A model generated the notes under the pieces. That model made no database searches. It was not told the DNA's origin and saw only the letters and a list, made by a program, of their open reading frames with translations. Shown here in pieces: positions 3,217-62,966 of a stretch of 64,000 nt of DNA. How positions within the stretch are numbered: the stretch's first letter is position 1; each line of letters starts with the position of its first letter. The stretch comes from Pelagomonas calceolata (Eukaryota): contig CAKKNE010000004.1 of the NCBI GenBank assembly GCA_918797485.1, forward strand, positions 1,984,001 through 2,048,000, given 5' to 3'. Both the position numbers and the translations under genes were made by a program.

Positions 3217-6200
3217 CTAGTCATGAACGGCCCTTGCCGGCGCGTCGAAGTATCCGGGCACGACCGGCGCGTCGTCGTCGCCGGCGTGGTCGTCGTCGCG
3301 CCCGCGGACGCGGACGTCGACGAGGCGCGGCTTTTCGTGGACGCGCTCCTCGTAGAAGCGCCGCACGTCCGCGAGGCCCAGCGCCTCGACGGCCGCCGCG
3401 ACGCGCTCGGGCCGGTCGAACGACGGCGCGCCGTCAGAATCGGGCGCCAGCAAGCAGCCCCACGCCTGTGCCGCCTCGCTCGCCATCGAGGTCGCGGGCT
3501 CGCGCCACTTCTTGGCGAGCGCGGCCTTCGCCGCCGCGAATTCAACCCCGTCGAAGTCGGGCCGCCACGCGTCCAGGAAGGCCTCGACGCGCGCCGCCGC
3601 GTCGTCCGAGCAGACGCGCTGCGACTGCACCCTCAATAATAGCAGGAGCCGGCCTCGAGCGGAGGAATACGACATCGACACGAGGTAGCCGAGCTGCTCG
3701 CGCGTGCGCAGTTGCGTGAAGAAGGGCTCCTTCGCCACGTGAACTAACAGAGACGCCGTCGCGTGCGTTCGTACGTCCTTCTTCGGGCCGAGGTCGTAGC
3801 ACTTTAAAACTGCAGAGTCCTTGTCGTTCTTCGCGTTCGGCGAGAAGCGCGCGACCCGCAGGGGCTCGTTCACAGCCGGCGCCGCGATGCGGCGCCGCGC
3901 GGGCCACGACCCTCGGACATCATCTACAAAGAACCGCGCCTCGACCACGGCCTCGGCCGCCGCGACATCTGACTCGTCGACGGCGCCGTGGACGTGTAAA
4001 AGCGCGCGGCAGCCCTCCAACGCTCGCGACGCGTGAGACCGGACGTCGTCGAGGGTGACGGCACCCACGGCGTCGCGGACGTCGCCCACCGGCGGCCGGC
4101 CTTCGTCACACAACTCCCGCCGCCAGCGGGACGAGTGCGAGTCGGCCCGCGCTTTGTCGACGTTCCTAAGCGCCCGCACGAGCCGGTCGCGCACGCGTTC
4201 GAACGCGGCCGCGTCCCACGTCGGCGCCGCGATCTCTTCACACACGGCGTCGAGCAAGCGCCACACTGCGCCGCCCGCGAGGCCGCCAACATATAAATCC
4301 ACACCCGACTCGAAGAACGCGTCCGACACGTCGTAGCTCAGGCCGGCGCAGGTCGCATCATACAAAGGTTTTTCGAGGTTCTCGAGCGCGAGGTTGACCC
4401 ACAGCAAAGCACAGGCCCGGCCCCGCGCACCGCCGCGCCCTAGCGCTTCGGAGGCGACGCGGCAGTGCGCGTAGGCCTTAGGCTGCCCGAACGTCGCGTC
4501 TTTCTTCCACCAGCTCACGAGCCGGCCCTGGGTCCGGCGGCGCGGCGGCGCGGACGAGGCGGCGCGCCGCGCCGCGTCCTTGTCTTCACTGTCGCGCCAC
4601 GCCGGCCGCGCCAGGCGGAGCCGCTCGGCGTCGGGCAAATATGCATTTCCAGCCGGCGCGCCGAGGTCCGTCGCTGTTACGCCGCGGCGCACGGCCTCGC
4701 CATACGACTCGATCTCCGCCCGCGTCAGCGGCCGCGATCCGTGCTGGACGCCGTACCAGCGCTCCGTCTCCAATGCCACGGACGGGGCCTTCGTCGCCAC
4801 GTGCACGATGATCTTCGAAGGGTCCGCCAGCGATGCAACCAAGGTGCTCAGCAGCGCCGACCGCTGCGGCGACCAGTCCGCGTCGCCGCACAAGCCCGGC
4901 CGGCCGCCGCACAACACGTGCGCGCCGTCGACGTCGTGGAGCGTCCGCGCCAAACTAGATACGATCGAATAGGCGCTTCGCCTCGAGCTGGCAAAATCGA
5001 AGGTCGCCCGGTCGATCGCCGCGAGCTCGCTCCACAGTCGCGCGCCCGTCTGCGCCTTGTCCAAATCGCGCCGGAGCGCCCCGACGGCCTCGAAGCACGT
5101 CTCTAACACTTCGCCGTACCGCTTCGTCTCGCCGGCCTCCGTGAGCTCGACGCGCATCGATAAACACGCGGCTTCCTTCAGAGACGGCCCGACGCCAAAA
5201 CTTAAAGCGTGAGCGAGACCTCTGCTCTTGAGCTTTGCGAGCAAGGACCGAGGGCCCTCGTGGCCCAGCGCGTGACCTACGATGTGCTCGGCACCATTCC
5301 GATAGTCGTCCCTCAACCCAAACGGCAGCGGCCACATGATCCTCAGCTCCCGCAAGTCGCGCACGGGCTTGCGCTCGTGGACGACGCCCGTCGCCGCGAA
5401 CAATGGTGGAGGCGCCTCTTCGCAGGGCGTCGGGCGCTCTCCGGATGCCCGAGAAGTGCTCCGCTAGCAATAATTCGAGGTCGTCGAGGCTCCGCGACGA
5501 GACGAGGCACACGGTCATGTTTTCCGGGTCGTAGCGGTCGCGCCAGAACGACAGGAGCCGCTCGCGGATCCGGGGCACCTGCAGCGTCTCGAGGCAGCCC
5601 GTGGAGAAGTTCGAGAAGGGGTGGTTTTGATTTGCGGATTTCCTCAAGACCTGGTACGCCCGCCGCCCGTCGTCATTGAGGTTCTTGGAGTGCTCGGCGT
5701 CGACGGCGTGCATCTCCCGATCCACGCACGATTCCAGCAGCAGGGGCTCGCGAAAGAAGCGCGCGAAGCGGTCCAAGGCGCCTCCAAAGGCCTCATCCAC
5801 AACGTCAAATTGAAAACACGTCTGCTCGCCGCTCGTCGACGCGTTCGTCGACCCCGCGTGCCTTGCCACAAATTGCTTGTAAGCGTTGTCTTCCCGGTAC
5901 GTCTCCGTGCCCTGGAACAGCATGTGCTCGAGGAAGTGGGCGAGGCCCGCGATATCGGTATCGGCGTAGGCGCCGACGCCGACGCATAATGCCGCGGCAG
6001 CTTTGTCCGTCGACGTGTCCCGCACCAAGACGCCGCGGATGCCGTTCGCAAGTTTCGCGAGGCGGAACGACCGATCATCACATAATGCTTTGTGCGGCTG
6101 GCCGAGGCGCTCGAGGCCGAGGGGCGGCGGGCCCTTGGGCGCCGTCGTCGGGCACAGGCCGCCGAAGTCGCCCTCGGTCACGTGGATTTCGCCGCAGTCG

Positions 6201-6256
6201 CGGCAGCAGGGCGGCTCGTTGGCCCAGCCGGCGCCGGGGACGAGGAGTGAGGCCAT
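3217..6256 (-). CDS. M16A insulysin/pitrilysin-like zinc peptidase, frameshifted near 5440
   Basis: GLAHFLEHMLFQG (HXXEH), LGHEGPRSL, FGQPKA and FFTQLRTREQLGY are split across two overlapping frames. Confidence 0.85.
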
Positions 6257-16207: not shown

Positions 16208-17718
16208 CTACGCCTCCTCGGCGTCGGCGACGGTCCCGTAGGCGAAGAGGAAGTCCTCGAGGAACTCCTCGGCGTCGATGCGGCCCGCGCGGGACGCCTC
16301 GCGCGCGACGACGCCCACCGCCCCCCGCAGCCAGGCGTCGACCTGGGGCAGCTTCGACCGCTGCCACTTGCGGTCGCCCTTGCCGGCGCCCGCGAGGTTG
16401 CGCACGGAGCGCTTCAGCGTCGACAGGGGCCGGGCCCGCGGCAGCTTCTTGAGCGACGCCGCCGCGACGGGTGGCAGGCGCTTCGCGAGGCCCTTGCGCA
16501 GCTTGAGCAGGTCGCGCCACGACCGCTTGACGACGATCGTCCGCGACGCGCCGCCGTCGACGGGGATCGCCACGCGGACGCCGTAGAAGCCCCGCTGCAG
16601 GTCGTAGGCGTCGACGCGCACGCGGAGCGTGGCGAGGGACCGGAGCGTGCGCAGCGCGCGGCAGACGGACGCGCGGTGGCCGCGCGGCGCGCCCGGCGCC
16701 GCCGCGAGCTGGAGCTCCCGGCCCCGCGCCTCGGCCGCGGCGGAGGCCATCTCGGCGACGATGGTCAGGGCCTCCTCGTCGAGCTTCGCGGCCTCCTCGA
16801 CCGACACGTCCGCGTCGTCGTGCGCCGCGTCCGTCGCGTTCGCCTCGAGCCTGCGCGCGTGGCGCGTCGACATGGCGTCGCGTCGAGACATGGCGTCGCG
16901 TCGACATGGCGTTGCGTCGACATGGCGTCGCGTCGATGGCGTCGCGTCGACGTGGCGTCTCGCGTCGACATGGCGTCGCGTCGACGTGGCGTCGCGTCGA
17001 GACATGGCGTCGCGTCGACATGGCGTCGCGTCGACATGGCGTCGCGTCGATGGCGCAGGGTCTCGACGCGCGGGACGAGCGGGCGATGGGACCGGGACGC
17101 CGCGGCGCGCCACTCCCAGACCAGCGCGAGGTCGATCATCTTGGCCACGGACTTGAGCCGCGCGCGCCGCTGCGCGACCATGCGGGCGCGCGCCTCGACC
17201 ACAGCCGCCTCGCGCGCGCGCCGCGCGCCGGACTCGCGCTCGCGCGCGCGCCGGGCCGCGCCGCCGTCGGCGAGGATCGCGCTGAGGCGCCGCAGCGCGC
17301 GGCGCTGCGCCGGCGTCGCGTGCTCGAGCGACGCGCGGCGGCCCGTCGAGCCGCGGCGGCCGACGCTCTTGCGCCAGGACGCCGCGCGCCGCGGCGGCGC
17401 GCCGTCCTCGTCGCTCGACGAGCTGTCGGACGAGTCGGGCGAGCCCGCGGGCGGCGGCGGCGGCGGCGCGCGGATCTGGGCCGCGAGCTCCGCCTCCATG
17501 CGCGCGAGCGCCGCGTCGGCGGCCGCGACGTCGGCCGCCGTGGGCTTGCTCGGCGACGCCGTCGGCAGCACCGGCGCCGGCGCCGGCGCCGGGGGCGCGG
17601 CCACCTTCTTCGTCGGCGTGAGCTCCTCGTCCTCGCTGAGGACCGCGAGCGCGTTCAGCTTCGACGCGAGGGGGCGCCGGTGCGGCGAGCGCGAGCGGGG
17701 GGCGGCGTAGGAGGCCAT
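16208..17718 (-). CDS. Protein with C-terminal PX-like domain; join(17093..17718,16208..16850)
   Basis: A GT-AG intron at 16851-17092 joins the frames (AAASR/LEANATD); VVKRSWRDLLKLRKGL...LP is PX-like. Confidence 0.65.
16862..17055. repeat. Intronic minisatellite of about 16-bp CGCGTCGACATGGCGT units
   Basis: About 12 degenerate tandem units fill the intron. Confidence 0.9.
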
Positions 17719-32810: not shown

Positions 32811-34466
32811 CTACATGGCCTCGTCGTCGCCGAGCGGGTTCCGGACCTCGTCCTCGTCGGCCGTGCGGACTTGCCCGTAGGAGCGCGCGCGAAAGAGGTC
32901 CTCGATCTCCTCGAGGGACCGGCCGGCCGTCTCCGGCAGGGCCCCGTGCAGCCAGGCGGCGCCCGCGAGCGATATGCAACTCAAAAGCGCGAAGGTCGAC
33001 GCCTGGCCGAGCGCCTTGCACAGCGACAGGAACGTCGCCGCGACCTGTGTGGAAATCAAAATGTTACGGCGCGTTTGTGCTGGATCGCCGTGCCGTCCTC
33101 CACGCCATCGATGCGACGCCTGCTCGATGGCGTGGCGATGCCGGTTCCTAGCCGCTCGACCGAGCCAGGTCGGCCGCGTCTTCGCCAAGAAATGACTTAG
33201 TGAAGAATACACCCGACGCACTGGTTTGATTTCCACACAGGCCGCCACGACGTAGTTCGCGGCCCAGTTCGCCGTGCACGCGGACGCCTGGCCGAGGCCC
33301 CGCAGGCGCGTCGGGTAGATCTCCGCGTTGACGACCCACGGGCCGCTCGACAGCCCGAGGCCGAAGCCTACGAGGTAGGTGACGACGCCGAGGAGGCCGA
33401 CGTACTTGTACGTGTCTATACCTGCCCAAAAAGCCAGGGCGACGCACGCCATCGCCGCCGCCGCCGCCAGGGCCGACGGGATGAGGAGCCGGCGGCGCCC
33501 GCACCTCTCCCAGAGCGGCAGCGAGACGACGATGCCCAGCCCCTGCGCGAGCGCCAGCACGGCGGTCAGCGCGACCGAGTCCTTCTCCTCGAAGCCGCAC
33601 ATGATTAAAATGGCCGCACCGTAGTACATGATCGTGTTGACCCCCGAGAACTGCTGCAGCGCCATGAGGCCCAAGCCGAGGCCGAACGTCGCTCGTAGGT
33701 GCGGCGTCCGTCGCACTTCGCTGAGGCCCTGGGCGCAGTCGCCGACGTCCTCCGGCTCCATCGCCCGCAGCTGCTGCAGGTCCCGCTCGATAGTTTCGGA
33801 GGAGGCCGCGCGCCCGCGCAGCGTCTCCAGGACGCGCGCCGCGCCGTCCACGTCTCCGGTCTGCGCGAGCCAACGCGGCGACTCCGGGAGGTAGAAGAAG
33901 CCTACAAGTTGGAGAAACGCCGGGGCCGCGGCGACGCCCATGCTCACGCGCCACCTCGATGATGTTCCTAGATACGTCCCGCAGACAATATTGACGCCGC
34001 ACGCCGCCGCCTGGCCGAGCACGATGAACAAATTGTAGCACGACACGAGGCGCCCGCGGAGCTCGGCCGGCGACGCCTCGGCCACATACACCGGAATCGC
34101 CATCGACGACAGCCCAACTCCTAACCCCAGCACGACGCGGCCCGCCACCAATTCGCCGAAGCCGCGCGCGGCCGCGACCGTCAGCGACCCGACACAATAA
34201 AAACACGACGCAACCATGATCACGGGCTTCCGGCCGCGCGCCTGCAGCGGCGCGCCCGCGAGCGCGCTGCCGACGGCGGCGAAGAGCACGGTCACGCTGA
34301 CCACGACCTGGATCTTCGCGTCGCTCAGGCCTAGGTCGTTCTGGACGAAGACCTCGGCGCCGGAGACGACGCCCGTGTCGTAGCCAAACAAGAAACCGCC
34401 GAGCACGGCGAAGACCGTCAGCAGGACTAACGCGCCGCTCAGCGGCGGTCGTTCCTCGGCCTCCAT
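32811..34466 (-). CDS. MFS sugar porter (inositol transporter-like); intron 33045-33248
   Basis: GGFLFGYDTGVVSGA, PESPRWL, QQFSGVN, EIYP, PETAGRSLEEI. Confidence 0.92.
   Translation of the reverse strand: MEAEERPPLSGALVLLTVFAVLGGFLFGYDTGVVSGAEVFVQNDLGLSDAKIQVVVSVTVLFAAVGSALAGAPLQARGRKPVIMVASCFYCVGSLTVAAARGFGELVAGRVVLGLGVGLSSMAIPVYVAEASPAELRGRLVSCYNLFIVLGQAAACGVNIVCGTYLGTSSRWRVSMGVAAAPAFLQLVGFFYLPESPRWLAQTGDVDGAARVLETLRGRAASSETIERDLQQLRAMEPEDVGDCAQGLSEVRRTPHLRATFGLGLGLMALQQFSGVNTIMYYGAAILIMCGFEEKDSVALTAVLALAQGLGIVVSLPLWERCGRRRLLIPSALAAAAAMACVALAFWAGIDTYKYVGLLGVVTYLVGFGLGLSSGPWVVNAEIYPTRLRGLGQASACTANWAANYVVAACVEIKPVRRVYSSLSHFLAKTRPTWLGRAARNRHRHAIEQASHRWRGGRHGDPAQTRRNILISTQVAATFLSLCKALGQASTFALLSCISLAGAAWLHGALPETAGRSLEEIEDLFRARSYGQVRTADEDEVRNPLGDDEAM
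33045..33240. mobile_element. Introner-type non-autonomous DNA transposon
   Basis: 16-bp perfect TIR CTGTGTGGAAATCAAA; 8-bp TSD gccgcgac/gccgccac. Confidence 0.85.
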
Positions 34467-44708: not shown

Positions 44709-47700
44709 CTACCTCCGCCGCGGCGACCGCTGCTTCCCGTCCCTGGAATTGGCGCGCGGCGAGTTCATCGCCGCGTCGACGGCCGACGAGCGCAGCGTAC
44801 TGTCGGCCGCGTTCATGGCGTTCTTGCGGTCGTGCTCGCCCCGCTTCACGGCGACGGCCGTGGTGATCGTGTTCGCGTCGAGGCGGCCGTCGCGACCGTA
44901 CGCCGCGGACTGTACGGCGACAAACAGCTTCTCGATCTCGCGCCCCGAGAAGTCGTCCGTGTCGCGGGCGACCTCCCCGAGCAGGGCGGGCGTCACATCT
45001 TTTGTTACTTTTAGCGACGCCGGGGCGCGGCGCACCGCGTCCCAGATCTTTTTTAAGAAGTGGCGCTTCCGCTCGATGAGTGACGCGCAGTAGACGTCGT
45101 AGTACAGCCTTACCAACTTATCTCGCGCCGCGAACGCCGGCAGCCCAAAATATAAAGTTTCATCGACGCGATCCAGTACGGCTTCATCTAAATCCTCGGC
45201 CCGATTCGTCGCTAAGACTAGCACGAAGGACGTCGTCGGGCTGCCGGTCTGGTACAGGAACGCGTTCAGCGCGTTGCGCATGTGCTCCGTGAGTTTCGCT
45301 CTGCTTCTCGAGGCTAAAAAAGCCTCGGCCTCGTCGATAAAAACGAGCACGCCCGTTTCCGACGTCCGAGCCCACCTAAATAACGTGTGGAGGGCCGTGA
45401 CGCCGTCGGAACCGAGCGGCCCGACGTCGCCGCCACTCATCAGCGCATATTCCAAACCCGACGCCTTCGCCAGTCGTTTCGCGACTAACGTCTTACCGGT
45501 GCCCGGCGGGCCGTGCAAGAGCATGTGCCGGAAGGGCGCTCTATTGGCTTTGGCATTTCTAGTTGCGATGGCGAGTTGCAAGACTCTCTGTCGTAATTCG
45601 TCCGGTAAGACGACACCGTCGAGGAAAGCCGCCTCCTTGCGGCGCTCCCGCTGTAAGGCTTCTCGCTCCATCGCTAGGTTCTTCTGATGAATCTCATTTC
45701 TAGATGCCTGGACGGCCCGCCGCTCGTCGTCATGGGTCTTTGCCCGCGCTCGGCACGCCTTGGCGTATTCATCAGAACGCATCTTCTTCACATCTCGAAA
45801 AAACTCGGCGTCCTCCCTAGTAAGTTGGCGGCGCGTCTTCTTGGCGAGCTTCCTTCTCTCAATCAGCAACGCCAGCTTCTTGCCCTGGTGCTTTATTGAT
45901 TGATACATTTCGCCCAGCATGAAACAGATAGAGTAGTACGCCACGATACATCCATAGACGAGCCACAGTTTCAGATCGACCATGCGATGCCTCAGGAAAA
46001 TCATATGGGAAGGCATTCGACCCACCCAGAAGACTGGATAAAACAACAACCGCAACACGACCTTCAGCGCGGTCGTACTCTTGCCGAAATAGCGCCGCGA
46101 CGTCTCCCTGACTAATCTAGGTCGTCCTAAATAAGCCTCCGCTAATGAACGAGTCAATATGGCCGCTTCCCGCGCGAAGTGCCCCCCACCCACCAGCGCG
46201 ACGATCGCACCGACTAAAGTCATGAGCAGCTTCGGATCGTCCAATAAAGTCGCCGCGCCCCTCCCGGCGTATTGGGCGACGAGCTGCACGGCCTCTAACA
46301 CCTTCTTCCGGTCTTCCGCAGCCTTCGCCCGCATCGCCCGCAGATGTATATCCTCGTTTGCTCTTTTAGCGGCCGCTCGCGCCTCCTCCTCGGCCTTGAC
46401 CCGTGCTAACTCCGCCTCCTTCCGCAGCGCTTCTATTTTGACCTCGTCCTCGAGCCGTTGTTTCAGGAGGGCCTCGTCGGTCTTTCTACGAACTTCTTCT
46501 TGGTCTCGGACGGACTGCTCCTGCAGTCTCAGTTTCTCGGCGTGGCGGTCGCGAGCCGCGAGGTCTTCCGCTTTACTGCGATCCCTAGCAGCGGCGTCTT
46601 CTACTCGCAGAGTCGCGTTCTCGAGCTTCTGTCTCTGTAGCGAAGCTTTCTTCTCATTGACAGCCTCTTTATCAAGCAACTCCTCGTTCTCGCGGAACTT
46701 CTCGTGGTCTTTTCTAGCTTCGATCAAGCGCTCCTCGTCCAATTCTCGCGGCTCCAAGTGCAACCTATCATCCAACGCAGCGAAGCGAGAAGCCGTCTCG
46801 TTCGCTCTGTGGGATAGAAATCTAGTAGTATCGCGCAAATGCTCCTGCTTCTCCCATAACCGCTGCACGGCGCCGACACCATGCATAAATAGCACGGGAT
46901 CGTCGACAATGGCCACGTCGTCGACGAACACGGGCGGTTTTTTGGGCCCCTGCGAGAAGGCCCTCCTTCCTACGCGAACAGCGTCGGGCACGAGCTGTTC
47001 TACTTCTTCTCCAATCACTCCGAACCTTCGACGCCCTTCCATCGTATCTTTTTCCAATTCATACACTCGCAGCGGAATCTTGGAAATGACATCAAGTAGT
47101 TCTGAAGTGTCCACGTCTTCGACATCCTTGTAGATGTCCGGCGGGGCCTTGCCGCCCTGCTTGTCCGTCGCTTGTTCTCTTGCTCTAGCGCGAGCCGCTT
47201 CCTCCCGCTCCAGACGCATCTGAGCCTGTTCAGCCTCGAGCAGTGCTTCTCGTCGTTTGACCTCCTCTAATTCCGCTAAGCGCGCGGCCTCCTCCGCGAG
47301 GGCGGCCTCGCGCATTTCTCGCTTCGCAGCAGCAGCAGCAGCGTCTCTCTCGGAAGCTTCCCGCCTCGACGCGGCGGCGGCCTCGGCAGCTTTTTGCCGT
47401 TCGATGGCGTCCGCCTCCCTCCGTTCCGCCGCGCGTTTCTCGTCCTCCAGCAGCTGAACCTTAGCCTGCTCCAATCTTCGAGCCTCGGCCTCGACCAGCG
47501 CGTTCGCCTCGCGCTCGATCTGCACCCTCAGCGCCTCCTCCCGCGCCCGCTCCTCCTCCTCCAGGCGTAAACGCGTCGCTTCCGCTTGCTCAATGGCCCG
47601 GTCCGCGGCCTCTTGCGCGGCCTCCTGGGCCTGTTGGGCCTCCTTGGCTCGGATCGCCGCGGCCTTGGCCTCGCGTTCCTTCAGCGCCTCCTGGGCCTTG

Positions 47701-48293
47701 GCCTTCGCGTCGTCCTCCAATTGTAGCTGGGCCCGTTGGAGCTCCGCTTCGCGCAGCGCGGCGGCCTCGCCCGCCGCCGTCTGGGCCGCGGCCTGGGCCT
47801 CCGCTTCCCGCGCAGATTGAGTATCAGCCTCTGCAGCTTCGTGCGCTCGGGCCGCGGCGTCGGCTTCCGCGGCCGCGCGGTCCGCCGCGGCCTTTTGCGT
47901 GGCGATGCGGTCCGCTTCGGCCGCTGCTGCCGCGTCCGCTGCTGCCTGCTGCTGTGCGGCAGCCTCGGCGGCCGCGCGGTCCGCTGCTGCCGCCTCCGCT
48001 GCTCTGGCGGCTTGGTCCCGCTCGGCTTGCTCCGCCGCAAGGCGCGCCGATTCGTCAGGCTCCGCAGGGGCAGGCTCGGCCTCCGGCTTGGCGGCCTCCG
48101 GCGTGGCGGGTGCCGCGGCGGCGGGCTTCCGGAGCGCCTCGAGGCGCGCGCGGGCGGCCGCGGCCCGCGCCGCCGTCGACGAGGCGCCGCCGCCCGCCCG
48201 GTTCCGGGCCCGCTCGGCCGCGGCGCGGGCGGCGTCGAGGTCGGCCCCCACGGCCTGAAGGGCTGCCAGGAATAGCAGCAGGCGCCGCGCCAT
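44709..48293 (-). CDS. ATAD3-like AAA+ ATPase with signal peptide and peptidase-S74-like domain
   Basis: LGRPRLVRETSR, PFRHMLLHGPPGTGKT, MSGGDVGPLG, FIDEAEAFL, LNAFLYQTG, FSGREI. Confidence 0.85.
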   Translation of the reverse strand: MARRLLLFLAALQAVGADLDAARAAAERARNRAGGGASSTAARAAAARARLEALRKPAAAAPATPEAAKPEAEPAPAEPDESARLAAEQAERDQAARAAEAAAADRAAAEAAAQQQAAADAAAAAEADRIATQKAAADRAAAEADAAARAHEAAEADTQSAREAEAQAAAQTAAGEAAALREAELQRAQLQLEDDAKAKAQEALKEREAKAAAIRAKEAQQAQEAAQEAADRAIEQAEATRLRLEEEERAREEALRVQIEREANALVEAEARRLEQAKVQLLEDEKRAAERREADAIERQKAAEAAAASRREASERDAAAAAAKREMREAALAEEAARLAELEEVKRREALLEAEQAQMRLEREEAARARAREQATDKQGGKAPPDIYKDVEDVDTSELLDVISKIPLRVYELEKDTMEGRRRFGVIGEEVEQLVPDAVRVGRRAFSQGPKKPPVFVDDVAIVDDPVLFMHGVGAVQRLWEKQEHLRDTTRFLSHRANETASRFAALDDRLHLEPRELDEERLIEARKDHEKFRENEELLDKEAVNEKKASLQRQKLENATLRVEDAAARDRSKAEDLAARDRHAEKLRLQEQSVRDQEEVRRKTDEALLKQRLEDEVKIEALRKEAELARVKAEEEARAAAKRANEDIHLRAMRAKAAEDRKKVLEAVQLVAQYAGRGAATLLDDPKLLMTLVGAIVALVGGGHFAREAAILTRSLAEAYLGRPRLVRETSRRYFGKSTTALKVVLRLLFYPVFWVGRMPSHMIFLRHRMVDLKLWLVYGCIVAYYSICFMLGEMYQSIKHQGKKLALLIERRKLAKKTRRQLTREDAEFFRDVKKMRSDEYAKACRARAKTHDDERRAVQASRNEIHQKNLAMEREALQRERRKEAAFLDGVVLPDELRQRVLQLAIATRNAKANRAPFRHMLLHGPPGTGKTLVAKRLAKASGLEYALMSGGDVGPLGSDGVTALHTLFRWARTSETGVLVFIDEAEAFLASRSRAKLTEHMRNALNAFLYQTGSPTTSFVLVLATNRAEDLDEAVLDRVDETLYFGLPAFAARDKLVRLYYDVYCASLIERKRHFLKKIWDAVRRAPASLKVTKDVTPALLGEVARDTDDFSGREIEKLFVAVQSAAYGRDGRLDANTITTAVAVKRGEHDRKNAMNAADSTLRSSAVDAAMNSPRANSRDGKQRSPRRR

Positions 48294-61975: not shown

Positions 61976-62966
61976 TTAGGACGAAGCCTCCGCCGCTCGA
62001 ACCGAAACGAACGGCGCGTCCGCGGCGGCCGACCGTAACGCAGCGAGGATGCGCTGCTGCTGCGCCAGTAGAGCCTTGGAAGCGGGCTCGATCCTCAAGG
62101 CGCGCATGACGTCCTGGGCCGCGGCGCGGTGCTTCCCGAGCGCGTGCCGCGCCGTCGCGCGGCGCTGCAAACTCTTAAAGTGGTCCGGCTCATAAGACAG
62201 GGCCGTGTCGCAGTCCGCCTCGGCGTTGTTGTACTGGTTCTGCTTCAGGTAGGCCATCGCGCGATTCGATAACGCGACGTGGTTCCTTGCTTTCAGTCCC
62301 AGACACAACGAGTAGCTCCGCACGGCGCCCTCGTAGTCGCCTTTGGAAAATTTCTCGTTGCCCAACCGGCGCTGGGCCTCCTCGGGGTTCTCCGGTTCCG
62401 CCAGAGGGCGCGCGTCGGCGGGGACCTGTGTTTGGTTCATTCCAGTCGCGTCCCGAGGCCGCGTCGCGGCGATGGCGTCCGAGGCTGTGTCGCGTCGATG
62501 GCGTCTGGCGCCCCCGTACGCCCTCGCCGCTAACCGACGCGCACTCTCGTCGCGTCGCGTCGATGCCACCTCGACGCGGTCGTCACACAATGATCTTCGG
62601 ACGCCGCATTTGTACCTCCTCGACGACGGTCGTCGCCTCCTCATCAATATCATAGTTGTCCGCGTCGAACTGCTCCCACTTTTTGTAGCCCTTGTCATAC
62701 ACATGGGCGCCCGGCGCTTTTGCTGATTGTTTTCGATGCTGCGCGGCACCCGCATCACTCTTAGCCGCCGAGTTCCGCACGCCCACCCTCATACCGCCGC
62801 GCACGGGCGGCAGGTCCGTGGGCGCCGCGCGGCGCTCCTTGTCTTTTTTCGCGATGTCCCGATTCCAGTCGGCGAACTCGCCCAGGTAGTGCTGTTGTTG
62901 CTGGGCGTCGTTTCTTATTTTGTGCTGCATCTCGAGCATCCTTCGCTGCTGGTCGGCGGGATTCAT
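61976..62966 (-). CDS. RPAP3-like TPR co-chaperone; intron 62426-62615
   Basis: QHKIRNDAQQQQHYL...KKD...LPPVR N-terminus; carboxylate-clamp-type TPRs (GNEKF, SNRAMAYLK); phase-0 GT-AG intron. Confidence 0.8.

What the first reader, a model, noticed from the sequence alone, without database searches (positions are those of the whole stretch)
33037..33248. Intact introner: a transposon that creates its own perfectly spliced intron
A 196-bp element (33045-33240) has a perfect 16-bp TIR, CTGTGTGGAAATCAAA, flanked by an 8-bp TSD (sense GTGGCGGC/GTCGCGGC, one mismatch). The GT at the start of the upstream TSD can act as donor and the TIR-terminal CAG as acceptor. Splicing then removes the element plus one TSD and restores ANYV|VAATF in the transporter. 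This matches the mechanism known for Aureococcus introner elements. The 204-nt intron is in frame and has no stop codon, so it is easily misannotated as 68 extra residues.
Basis: partly seen in the sequence, partly recalled or inferred. Interest (0 to 1): 0.75.

Follow-up and report, generated by a model that had tools for sequence, protein, structure and literature searches.

The report
Spliced introner in algal sugar transporter
A 196-base copy of a many-copy mini-transposon sits inside a marine alga's sugar-transporter gene and is cut out of the messenger RNA as an intron; this is a real but already known kind of element (an introner), and the public protein record reads through it, adding 68 residues.

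Summary
Confirmed, and of a known kind. The element at 33045-33240 has 16-bp terminal inverted repeats (TIRs) and an 8-bp target duplication (TSD, 7/8 match). RNA from three samples shows the predicted 204-nt GT..AG splice, restoring a 483-aa sugar porter.

Family: 107 distinct sites in marine metagenomes plus the window; 88 have an 8-bp TSD with at most one mismatch; 78 of 79 with a clear reading frame start that TSD with GT/GC on the coding strand, in either orientation. Two family sites have precise empty homologues. The same 15-bp TIR bounds an otherwise unalignable element in Aureococcus anophagefferens DNA. The host is likely Pelagomonas, where 956 introners are already reported.

Corrections: the family TIR is 15 bp. 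This copy is not pristine: an 8-nt deletion plus a 1-nt insertion made the intron in-frame and stop-free. No transposase was found, so 'hAT' is untested. The feared misannotation is real: the 551-aa read-through is in NCBI, UniRef and nr. Intron-interior depth suggests 5-20% retention. The scan noted other introners before, none similar in sequence.

The parts
33249..34466 (-). Exon 1 of a sugar-porter (MFS, Sugar_tr) gene, 406 codons
   Evidence: Pfam PF00083 E 5e-82; stranded RNA depth on the minus strand
33045..33248 (-). Spliceosomal intron, 204 nt, GT..AG, phase 0, no stop in frame; equals upstream TSD plus element
   Evidence: Joint skipping 204 nt with ends CT..AC in 4 of 4 runs laid; sequence
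33241..33248 (-). Upstream TSD copy GTGGCGGC; its first two bases are the 5' splice site
   Evidence: family rule
33045..33240 (.). Non-autonomous TIR element (MITE-like introner), 196 bp, 58.7% GC
33225..33240 (-). TIR at the intron's 5' side; holds a second, unused in-frame GT at its base 5
   Evidence: no such joint listed
33100..33135 (.). Internal palindrome (CCACGCCATCGA ... TCGATGGCGTGG), a motif also seen in subfamily C elements
33045..33060 (-). TIR at the intron's 3' side, ending TTGATTTCCACACAG; supplies the acceptor AG (a branch point at its TTGAT is only inferred)
33037..33044 (-). Downstream TSD copy GTCGCGGC, kept in the mRNA (Val-Ala-Ala)
32811..33044 (-). Exon 2 of the transporter including the stop codon

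Best explanation
This is a non-autonomous DNA-transposon copy with inverted ends that is removed from the transporter mRNA as a GT-AG intron together with one copy of its 8-base flanking duplication, and it was likely inserted by a transposase encoded elsewhere. Shown: the splice, the family, the 8-bp duplication, the donor at the start of the upstream duplication, the acceptor at the end of the TIR, and use in both orientations. Inferred: cut-and-paste insertion with an 8-nt staggered cut; survival in exons only where the target began with GT/GC on the coding strand (selection), helped by some palindromic target preference; later indels that turned a 211-nt frameshifting intron into a 204-nt stop-free one; host is Pelagomonas calceolata or a close relative.
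For: Splice: 6 reads from 4 starts (X21) and 14 reads from 10 starts (X22), one sample; plus one contig each in X8 (depth 121) and X13 (depth 31.6), two further studies. DNA runs X3 and X11 (one sample) hold both element junctions at this site with 0 differences. TSD: 8 bp perfect in 65 and one mismatch in 23 of 107 distinct sites; lengths 3-7 and 9-12 perfect in at most 1. GT/GC starts the TSD on some strand in 88 of 88 against 33% background; on the coding strand in 78 of 79; 52 of 53 where only one strand has it; donors GT 48, GC 30, GA 1; orientations 32 and 20 in subfamily A. Empty homologous sites: L115 for L139 (one TSD copy, precise) and L170 for L122, each of these two lacking the other's insertion 32 bp away. 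All 11 homologues aligned lack the 68 residues (one, P0009, is frameshifted there).
Against: No transposase or long element with these ends was found: none among 35 window ORFs, none in 330 kb of loci; one Tc1-like entry and no hAT entry in the stored part of the P. calceolata gene table. 19 of 107 sites lack a clean 8-bp TSD; two look like 5- or 7-bp duplications, the rest may be decay or misassembly. Intron-interior depth was about 5 against 22 in X22 and 1-2 against 7-25 in X21, so splicing is not complete. The folded RNA buries the acceptor AG in the TIR stem (z -5.6).
Confidence: 0.93

Rival explanations
1. The element is exonised: the 551-aa read-through protein of the public record is the real product, or a functional second isoform.
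For: The 204 nt are in frame and stop-free; the 551-aa sequence is in NCBI, UniRef and nr; some intron-interior depth lies on the gene's strand.
Against: Spliced form dominates in raw reads and is the only contig form in X8 and X13. The insert would split the hydrophobic NWxxNxxV stretch that aligns without a gap to GlcP and GLUT7 (helix 11 by recall). Another allele of the same insertion reads into a frameshift and stop (P0132). 4 of 21 family introns of 3n length are stop-free, so this state arises without special selection.
Confidence: 0.04
2. The joined form comes from a strain or allele that lacks the element in its DNA, not from splicing.
Against: The raw-read sample shows both the joint and difference-free reads inside the copy-specific part of the intron; exon reads show no differences from the window; the cut falls on GT..AG. 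DNA runs labelled as the same organism hold the element.
Confidence: 0.02
3. The family spreads through RNA (reverse splicing or retrotransposition) and the TIRs are incidental hairpins.
For: No transposase found; nearly all scored copies lie in coding sequence (79 of 88).
Against: Fixed 8-bp TSDs, exact TIRs shared by unalignable interiors and by 59-155-bp derivatives, and both orientations in genes are DNA-transposon marks; the donor lies outside the copied unit.
Confidence: 0.03

Closest known systems
Introner elements of Pelagomonas calceolata (Guerin et al., 10.1101/2021.10.25.465678 and PMC9481584; passages and supplement passages seen)
   Same: Intron peak near 210 bp (here 203+8 = 211), GT and GC donors, AG acceptor, conserved TIR, about a thousand copies (956 putative).
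   Different: The text seen does not mention a TSD, where the donor comes from, orientation or polymorphism; its logo figure could not be seen, so sequence identity with this family was not tested. The host assignment is my inference.
Introner elements of Aureococcus anophagefferens (Huff, Zilberman and Roy 2016, not held, recalled and seen second-hand in PMC10228655 and PMC9860276; family rows in PMC9860276 Supplementary Table 6 seen)
   Same: About 200-bp TIR elements that co-opt splice sites and insert in both orientations; 8-bp TSD named in the Fig. 2F legend. Subfamily B here has the same exact 15-bp TIR and modal length, in a contig whose kinase is 99% identical to A. anophagefferens.
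   Different: Interior of the window's element has no blastn similarity to subfamily B (59% vs 49% GC). GC donors are 38% here against 2-3% in the two large A. anophagefferens families of that table.
Micromonas pusilla IE1 (PMC11282704, figure legend seen)
   Same: MITE-like introner whose splicing removes the element plus one TSD.
   Different: There the element brings the donor and the short TSD gives the acceptor; here the reverse, with an 8-bp TSD.
hAT-type MITEs (recalled)
   Same: 8-bp TSD and short TIRs.
   Different: No transposase linked; other superfamilies also make 8-bp TSDs.

Membership tests
Introner (TIR/TSD, Aureococcus type) | Removed from mRNA as a spliceosomal intron | tested here: met
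   GT..AG joint of 204 nt in 4 of 4 runs laid
Introner (TIR/TSD, Aureococcus type) | Many similar copies at unrelated positions | tested here: met
   73 of 107 distinct sites fall in the window copy's subfamily; 3224 contigs in one DNA run
Introner (TIR/TSD, Aureococcus type) | TIRs and a fixed-length TSD | tested here: met
   8-bp TSD with at most one mismatch in 88 of 107; the TIRs were the search pattern, so their presence in these copies is by construction
Introner (TIR/TSD, Aureococcus type) | One splice site co-opted from the TSD, mRNA restored, both orientations | tested here: met
   78 of 79 coding-strand GT/GC; orientations 32 and 20; homologues colinear
Introner (TIR/TSD, Aureococcus type) | Lineage-restricted gain with empty homologous sites | tested here: met
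   Two family sites shown in DNA; for this very site only indirectly, from unspliced ORF calls
Introner (TIR/TSD, Aureococcus type) | Insertion in nucleosome linkers | not testable with these tools
   No chromatin data
P. calceolata IE family of Guerin et al. | Sequence identity with the published logo or list | not testable with these tools
   Figures not held; supplement file 5 is pictures and file 4 is cut; length, donors and TIR agree
hAT superfamily | 8-bp TSD | tested here: met
hAT superfamily | Cognate hAT transposase in an element with the same ends | tested here: inconclusive
   None in the window, the loci or the stored part of the published gene table; no whole genome was available

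The most novel reading that the evidence does not exclude
The 15-bp TIR is a portable splice module kept letter for letter across two pelagophyte genera while interiors turned over completely. It gives an acceptor in either orientation and a fallback in-frame donor (+4 codons). It is served by an undescribed transposase that already prefers GY-N4-RC targets, so the element was pre-adapted to make introns, and insertions still segregate in wild populations. In this copy a later deletion made retained RNA stop-free, a first step toward exonisation.
Probability: 0.25. Interest if true: 0.55.

Novelty: new member of a known kind. Interest (0 to 1): 0.3.

Why it matters
It is a clean, RNA-verified example of intron gain by a DNA transposon, and it shows a concrete database error: the public protein record reads through the intron. 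Stop-free 3n copies (4 of 79 scored) would mislead gene callers elsewhere in this abundant alga. The shared TIR, the target preference and the filled/empty sites give handles to find the missing transposase and to measure selection on new introns in wild populations. The mechanism itself is already described.

Tried and rejected
No whole genome was held, so no genome-wide count or transposase search. No second copy in the window. The palindrome flanking this TSD (ACGTC..GACGT) is not a family trait: flank complementarity stayed within the shuffle range at all 12 distances. Viral contigs: 53 single 15-mer hits, none with more of the element, treated as chance. Prokaryote genomes: 1 hit, an element end on a MAG contig edge, likely contamination. 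The first laying at 90% likeness was swamped by other copies and did not list the junction; it appeared at 98%. The alternative donor inside the TIR (192-nt skip) was not among the 3 joints listed. Pairwise identities mixed subfamilies and were replaced. Cluster look-ups for 9 proteins beside subfamily A and C copies gave no species name. Ten presumed RNA runs share 0.84-0.87 of words, as loss of the intron predicts, but a DNA run with gaps also gave 0.86, so this was not used. Huff et al. 2016 could not be read; PMC7789003 timed out.

Full report
OBSERVATION. The sequence is as described. The element spans 33045-33240 (196 bp) with a perfect 16-bp inverted match and 8-bp flanks that differ at one base. 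It interrupts a minus-strand sugar-porter gene (Pfam PF00083) after codon 406. Removing 33045-33248 (GT..AG, 204 nt) gives 483 aa with ANYV|VAATF; leaving it in gives an open 551-aa frame. The TIR is not chance (2 matches, 0.15 expected), and it is the only such structure among 45 inverted repeats in the window. There is no second copy in the window.

SPLICING. At 98% likeness, all 4 runs laid show one joint skipping 204 nt with ends CT..AC, i.e. GT..AG on the gene's strand: 6 reads from 4 starts in X21, 14 reads from 10 starts in X22 (same sample), and one contig each in X8 and X13 from two other studies. Two DNA runs of one sample carry both element junctions at this site without differences. 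Splicing is not complete in raw reads: depth in the copy-specific part of the intron is about 5 against 22 in X22 and 1-2 against 7-25 in X21, all on the gene's strand; the two contig runs have none there. That suggests roughly 5-20% unspliced RNA. A predicted stem between the TIRs buries the acceptor and might slow splicing; this is inference.

FAMILY. In DNA run X3, 3224 contigs lay on 2.1 kb, with summed depth hundreds to thousands of times higher on the element than beside it and mixed loose ends at both borders (the tool warns this is no copy number). A two-TIR scan of metagenomes stopped at 120 loci. With the window that is 121 elements; 110 had 40-nt flanks and collapsed to 107 distinct sites. 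The TSD is 8 bp: perfect in 65, one mismatch in 23, two in 5; the other 14 fail. Modal length is 203 bp (53 of 107).

MECHANISM. Of the 88 clean sites, all 88 have GT or GC at the start of the TSD on at least one strand, against 33% of flanking 8-mers. A codon model trained on 18 Pfam-supported window genes gave a clear frame for 79 of 88; in 78 the GT/GC is on the coding strand, and in 52 of 53 one-strand cases the coding strand is the GT/GC strand. Donors are GT 48, GC 30, GA 1, with no consensus beyond two bases. Subfamily A copies face both ways relative to the gene (32 and 20). So the TIR's final CAG is the acceptor in either orientation, the donor comes from the duplicated host DNA, and splicing removes element plus one TSD. 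GT/GC also occurs on the non-coding strand more than expected (26 of 78 against 19.6%, p 0.003; 25 of 68 outside subfamily B, but 2 of 20 in B). I read this as selection plus a mild palindromic target preference; it is not settled. The TIR holds a second GT whose use would add 12 nt, the same arithmetic as the Fig. 2F legend of Gozashti et al. for an Aureococcus sp. family; it was not seen at this locus.

PRESENCE AND ABSENCE. L115 lacks the insertion of L139 and keeps one TSD copy; L122 and L170 carry separate insertions 32 bp apart in homologous genes, each empty at the other's site. For this gene, 15 of 143 cluster members were listed: 3 read into the element (the window's own, P0123, P0132) and 12 are continuous. 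Many of the continuous ones sit on contigs of 2-8 kb and one on a 735-kb contig, longer than the 1.6-kb mRNA. Since such calls appear to be unspliced ORFs, empty alleles are likely, but I could not fetch their DNA.

THIS COPY. Against the family majority it lacks 8 nt near 33208 and has one extra base at 33225, turning a 211-nt intron into 204 nt. P0132 reads into the same insertion but shifts frame and stops, so the open state looks derived. Among 79 scored copies 21 are 3n long and 4 of those are stop-free. The 68 residues would split a hydrophobic stretch that aligns without a gap to GlcP and GLUT7 (helix 11 by recall) and that is colinear in the homologues.

RELATIVES. The shared TIR bounds three subfamilies with interiors that do not align by blastn (73 A including the window, 22 B, 7 C, 5 singles) and short derivatives of 59-155 bp with their own 8-bp TSDs. 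A kinase beside B copy L067 is 99% identical to Aureococcus anophagefferens. The window's transporter is only 60-70% identical to its Aureococcus homologues. From this, the GC content and a 5.3-Mb contig I infer Pelagomonas calceolata or a close relative; no call named it. No autonomous element or transposase was found, so the superfamily is open.

WHAT IS KNOWN. Guerin et al. report 956 putative introners in P. calceolata, an intron peak near 210 bp, GT and GC donors, AG acceptors and conserved TIRs (passages; supplement passages). Gozashti et al. 2022 describe TSD-derived donors in general and list about 200-bp TIR families in Aureococcus; their four Pelagomonas MAG family rows have TSD and TIR marked '?' (passages; supplement rows). 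Gozashti et al. 2025 say most introners are non-autonomous (passages). Huff et al. 2016 was not held and is cited from recall and from a review passage. A full-text search for the TIR string found 0 papers, 'introner' with 'Pelagomonas' found 3, and 'TSD' had 0 hits in the Guerin supplements searched. Unseen figures, a picture-only file and truncated tables may hold the logo and TSD. Earlier scan notes hold many introners but none similar in sequence.

VERDICT. A real, RNA-verified introner of the Aureococcus/Pelagomonas type. The mechanism is known; the additions are the family-wide evidence for the TSD-derived donor, the TIR shared across genera, empty sites and a confirmed database error. 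Interest 0.3.

Noticed in passing
L067:10001-10203 and 21 other subfamily B loci: Same exact 15-bp TIR and 203-bp length but an unalignable, 49% GC interior, in a contig whose kinase is 99% identical to Aureococcus anophagefferens; 20 of 22 have an 8-bp TSD.
   Followed up: partly
L066:383-460, L108:3813-3883, L091:142-200, L135:569-653: Short derivatives (59-85 bp) with near-identical TIRs, most with their own 8-bp TSD.
   Followed up: partly
L155:79-275: The one scored copy whose TSD lacks GT/GC on the apparent coding strand; a candidate for use of the in-frame GT inside the TIR. Frame call is weak.
   Followed up: no
L166:301-503: An apparent 203-bp element is two short elements (62 and 83 bp) 58 bp apart.
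   Followed up: no
window 16860-17056 and 62440-62590: Tandem array and scattered repeats sharing the CGCCATCGACGCGAC motif with the element's interior, without TIRs.
   Followed up: no
window 3217-6256 (-): M16 peptidase split over two overlapping frames; likely an ordinary intron or a frameshift.
   Followed up: no
window 44709-48293 (-): 1194-aa ORF with ATAD3 domains only from residue 539, over a region of strong AT skew; possibly two genes or a low-complexity stretch.
   Followed up: no
L174:2639-2675: Element end at the edge of a contig in a bacterial MAG, 64% GC; likely algal contamination.
   Followed up: partly
window 33045-33240 as bait: One other copy's end is very abundant in polyA RNA (about 2300 reads with one shared flank in each of X21 and X24), suggesting an unspliced or antisense-transcribed family member elsewhere.
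   Followed up: no
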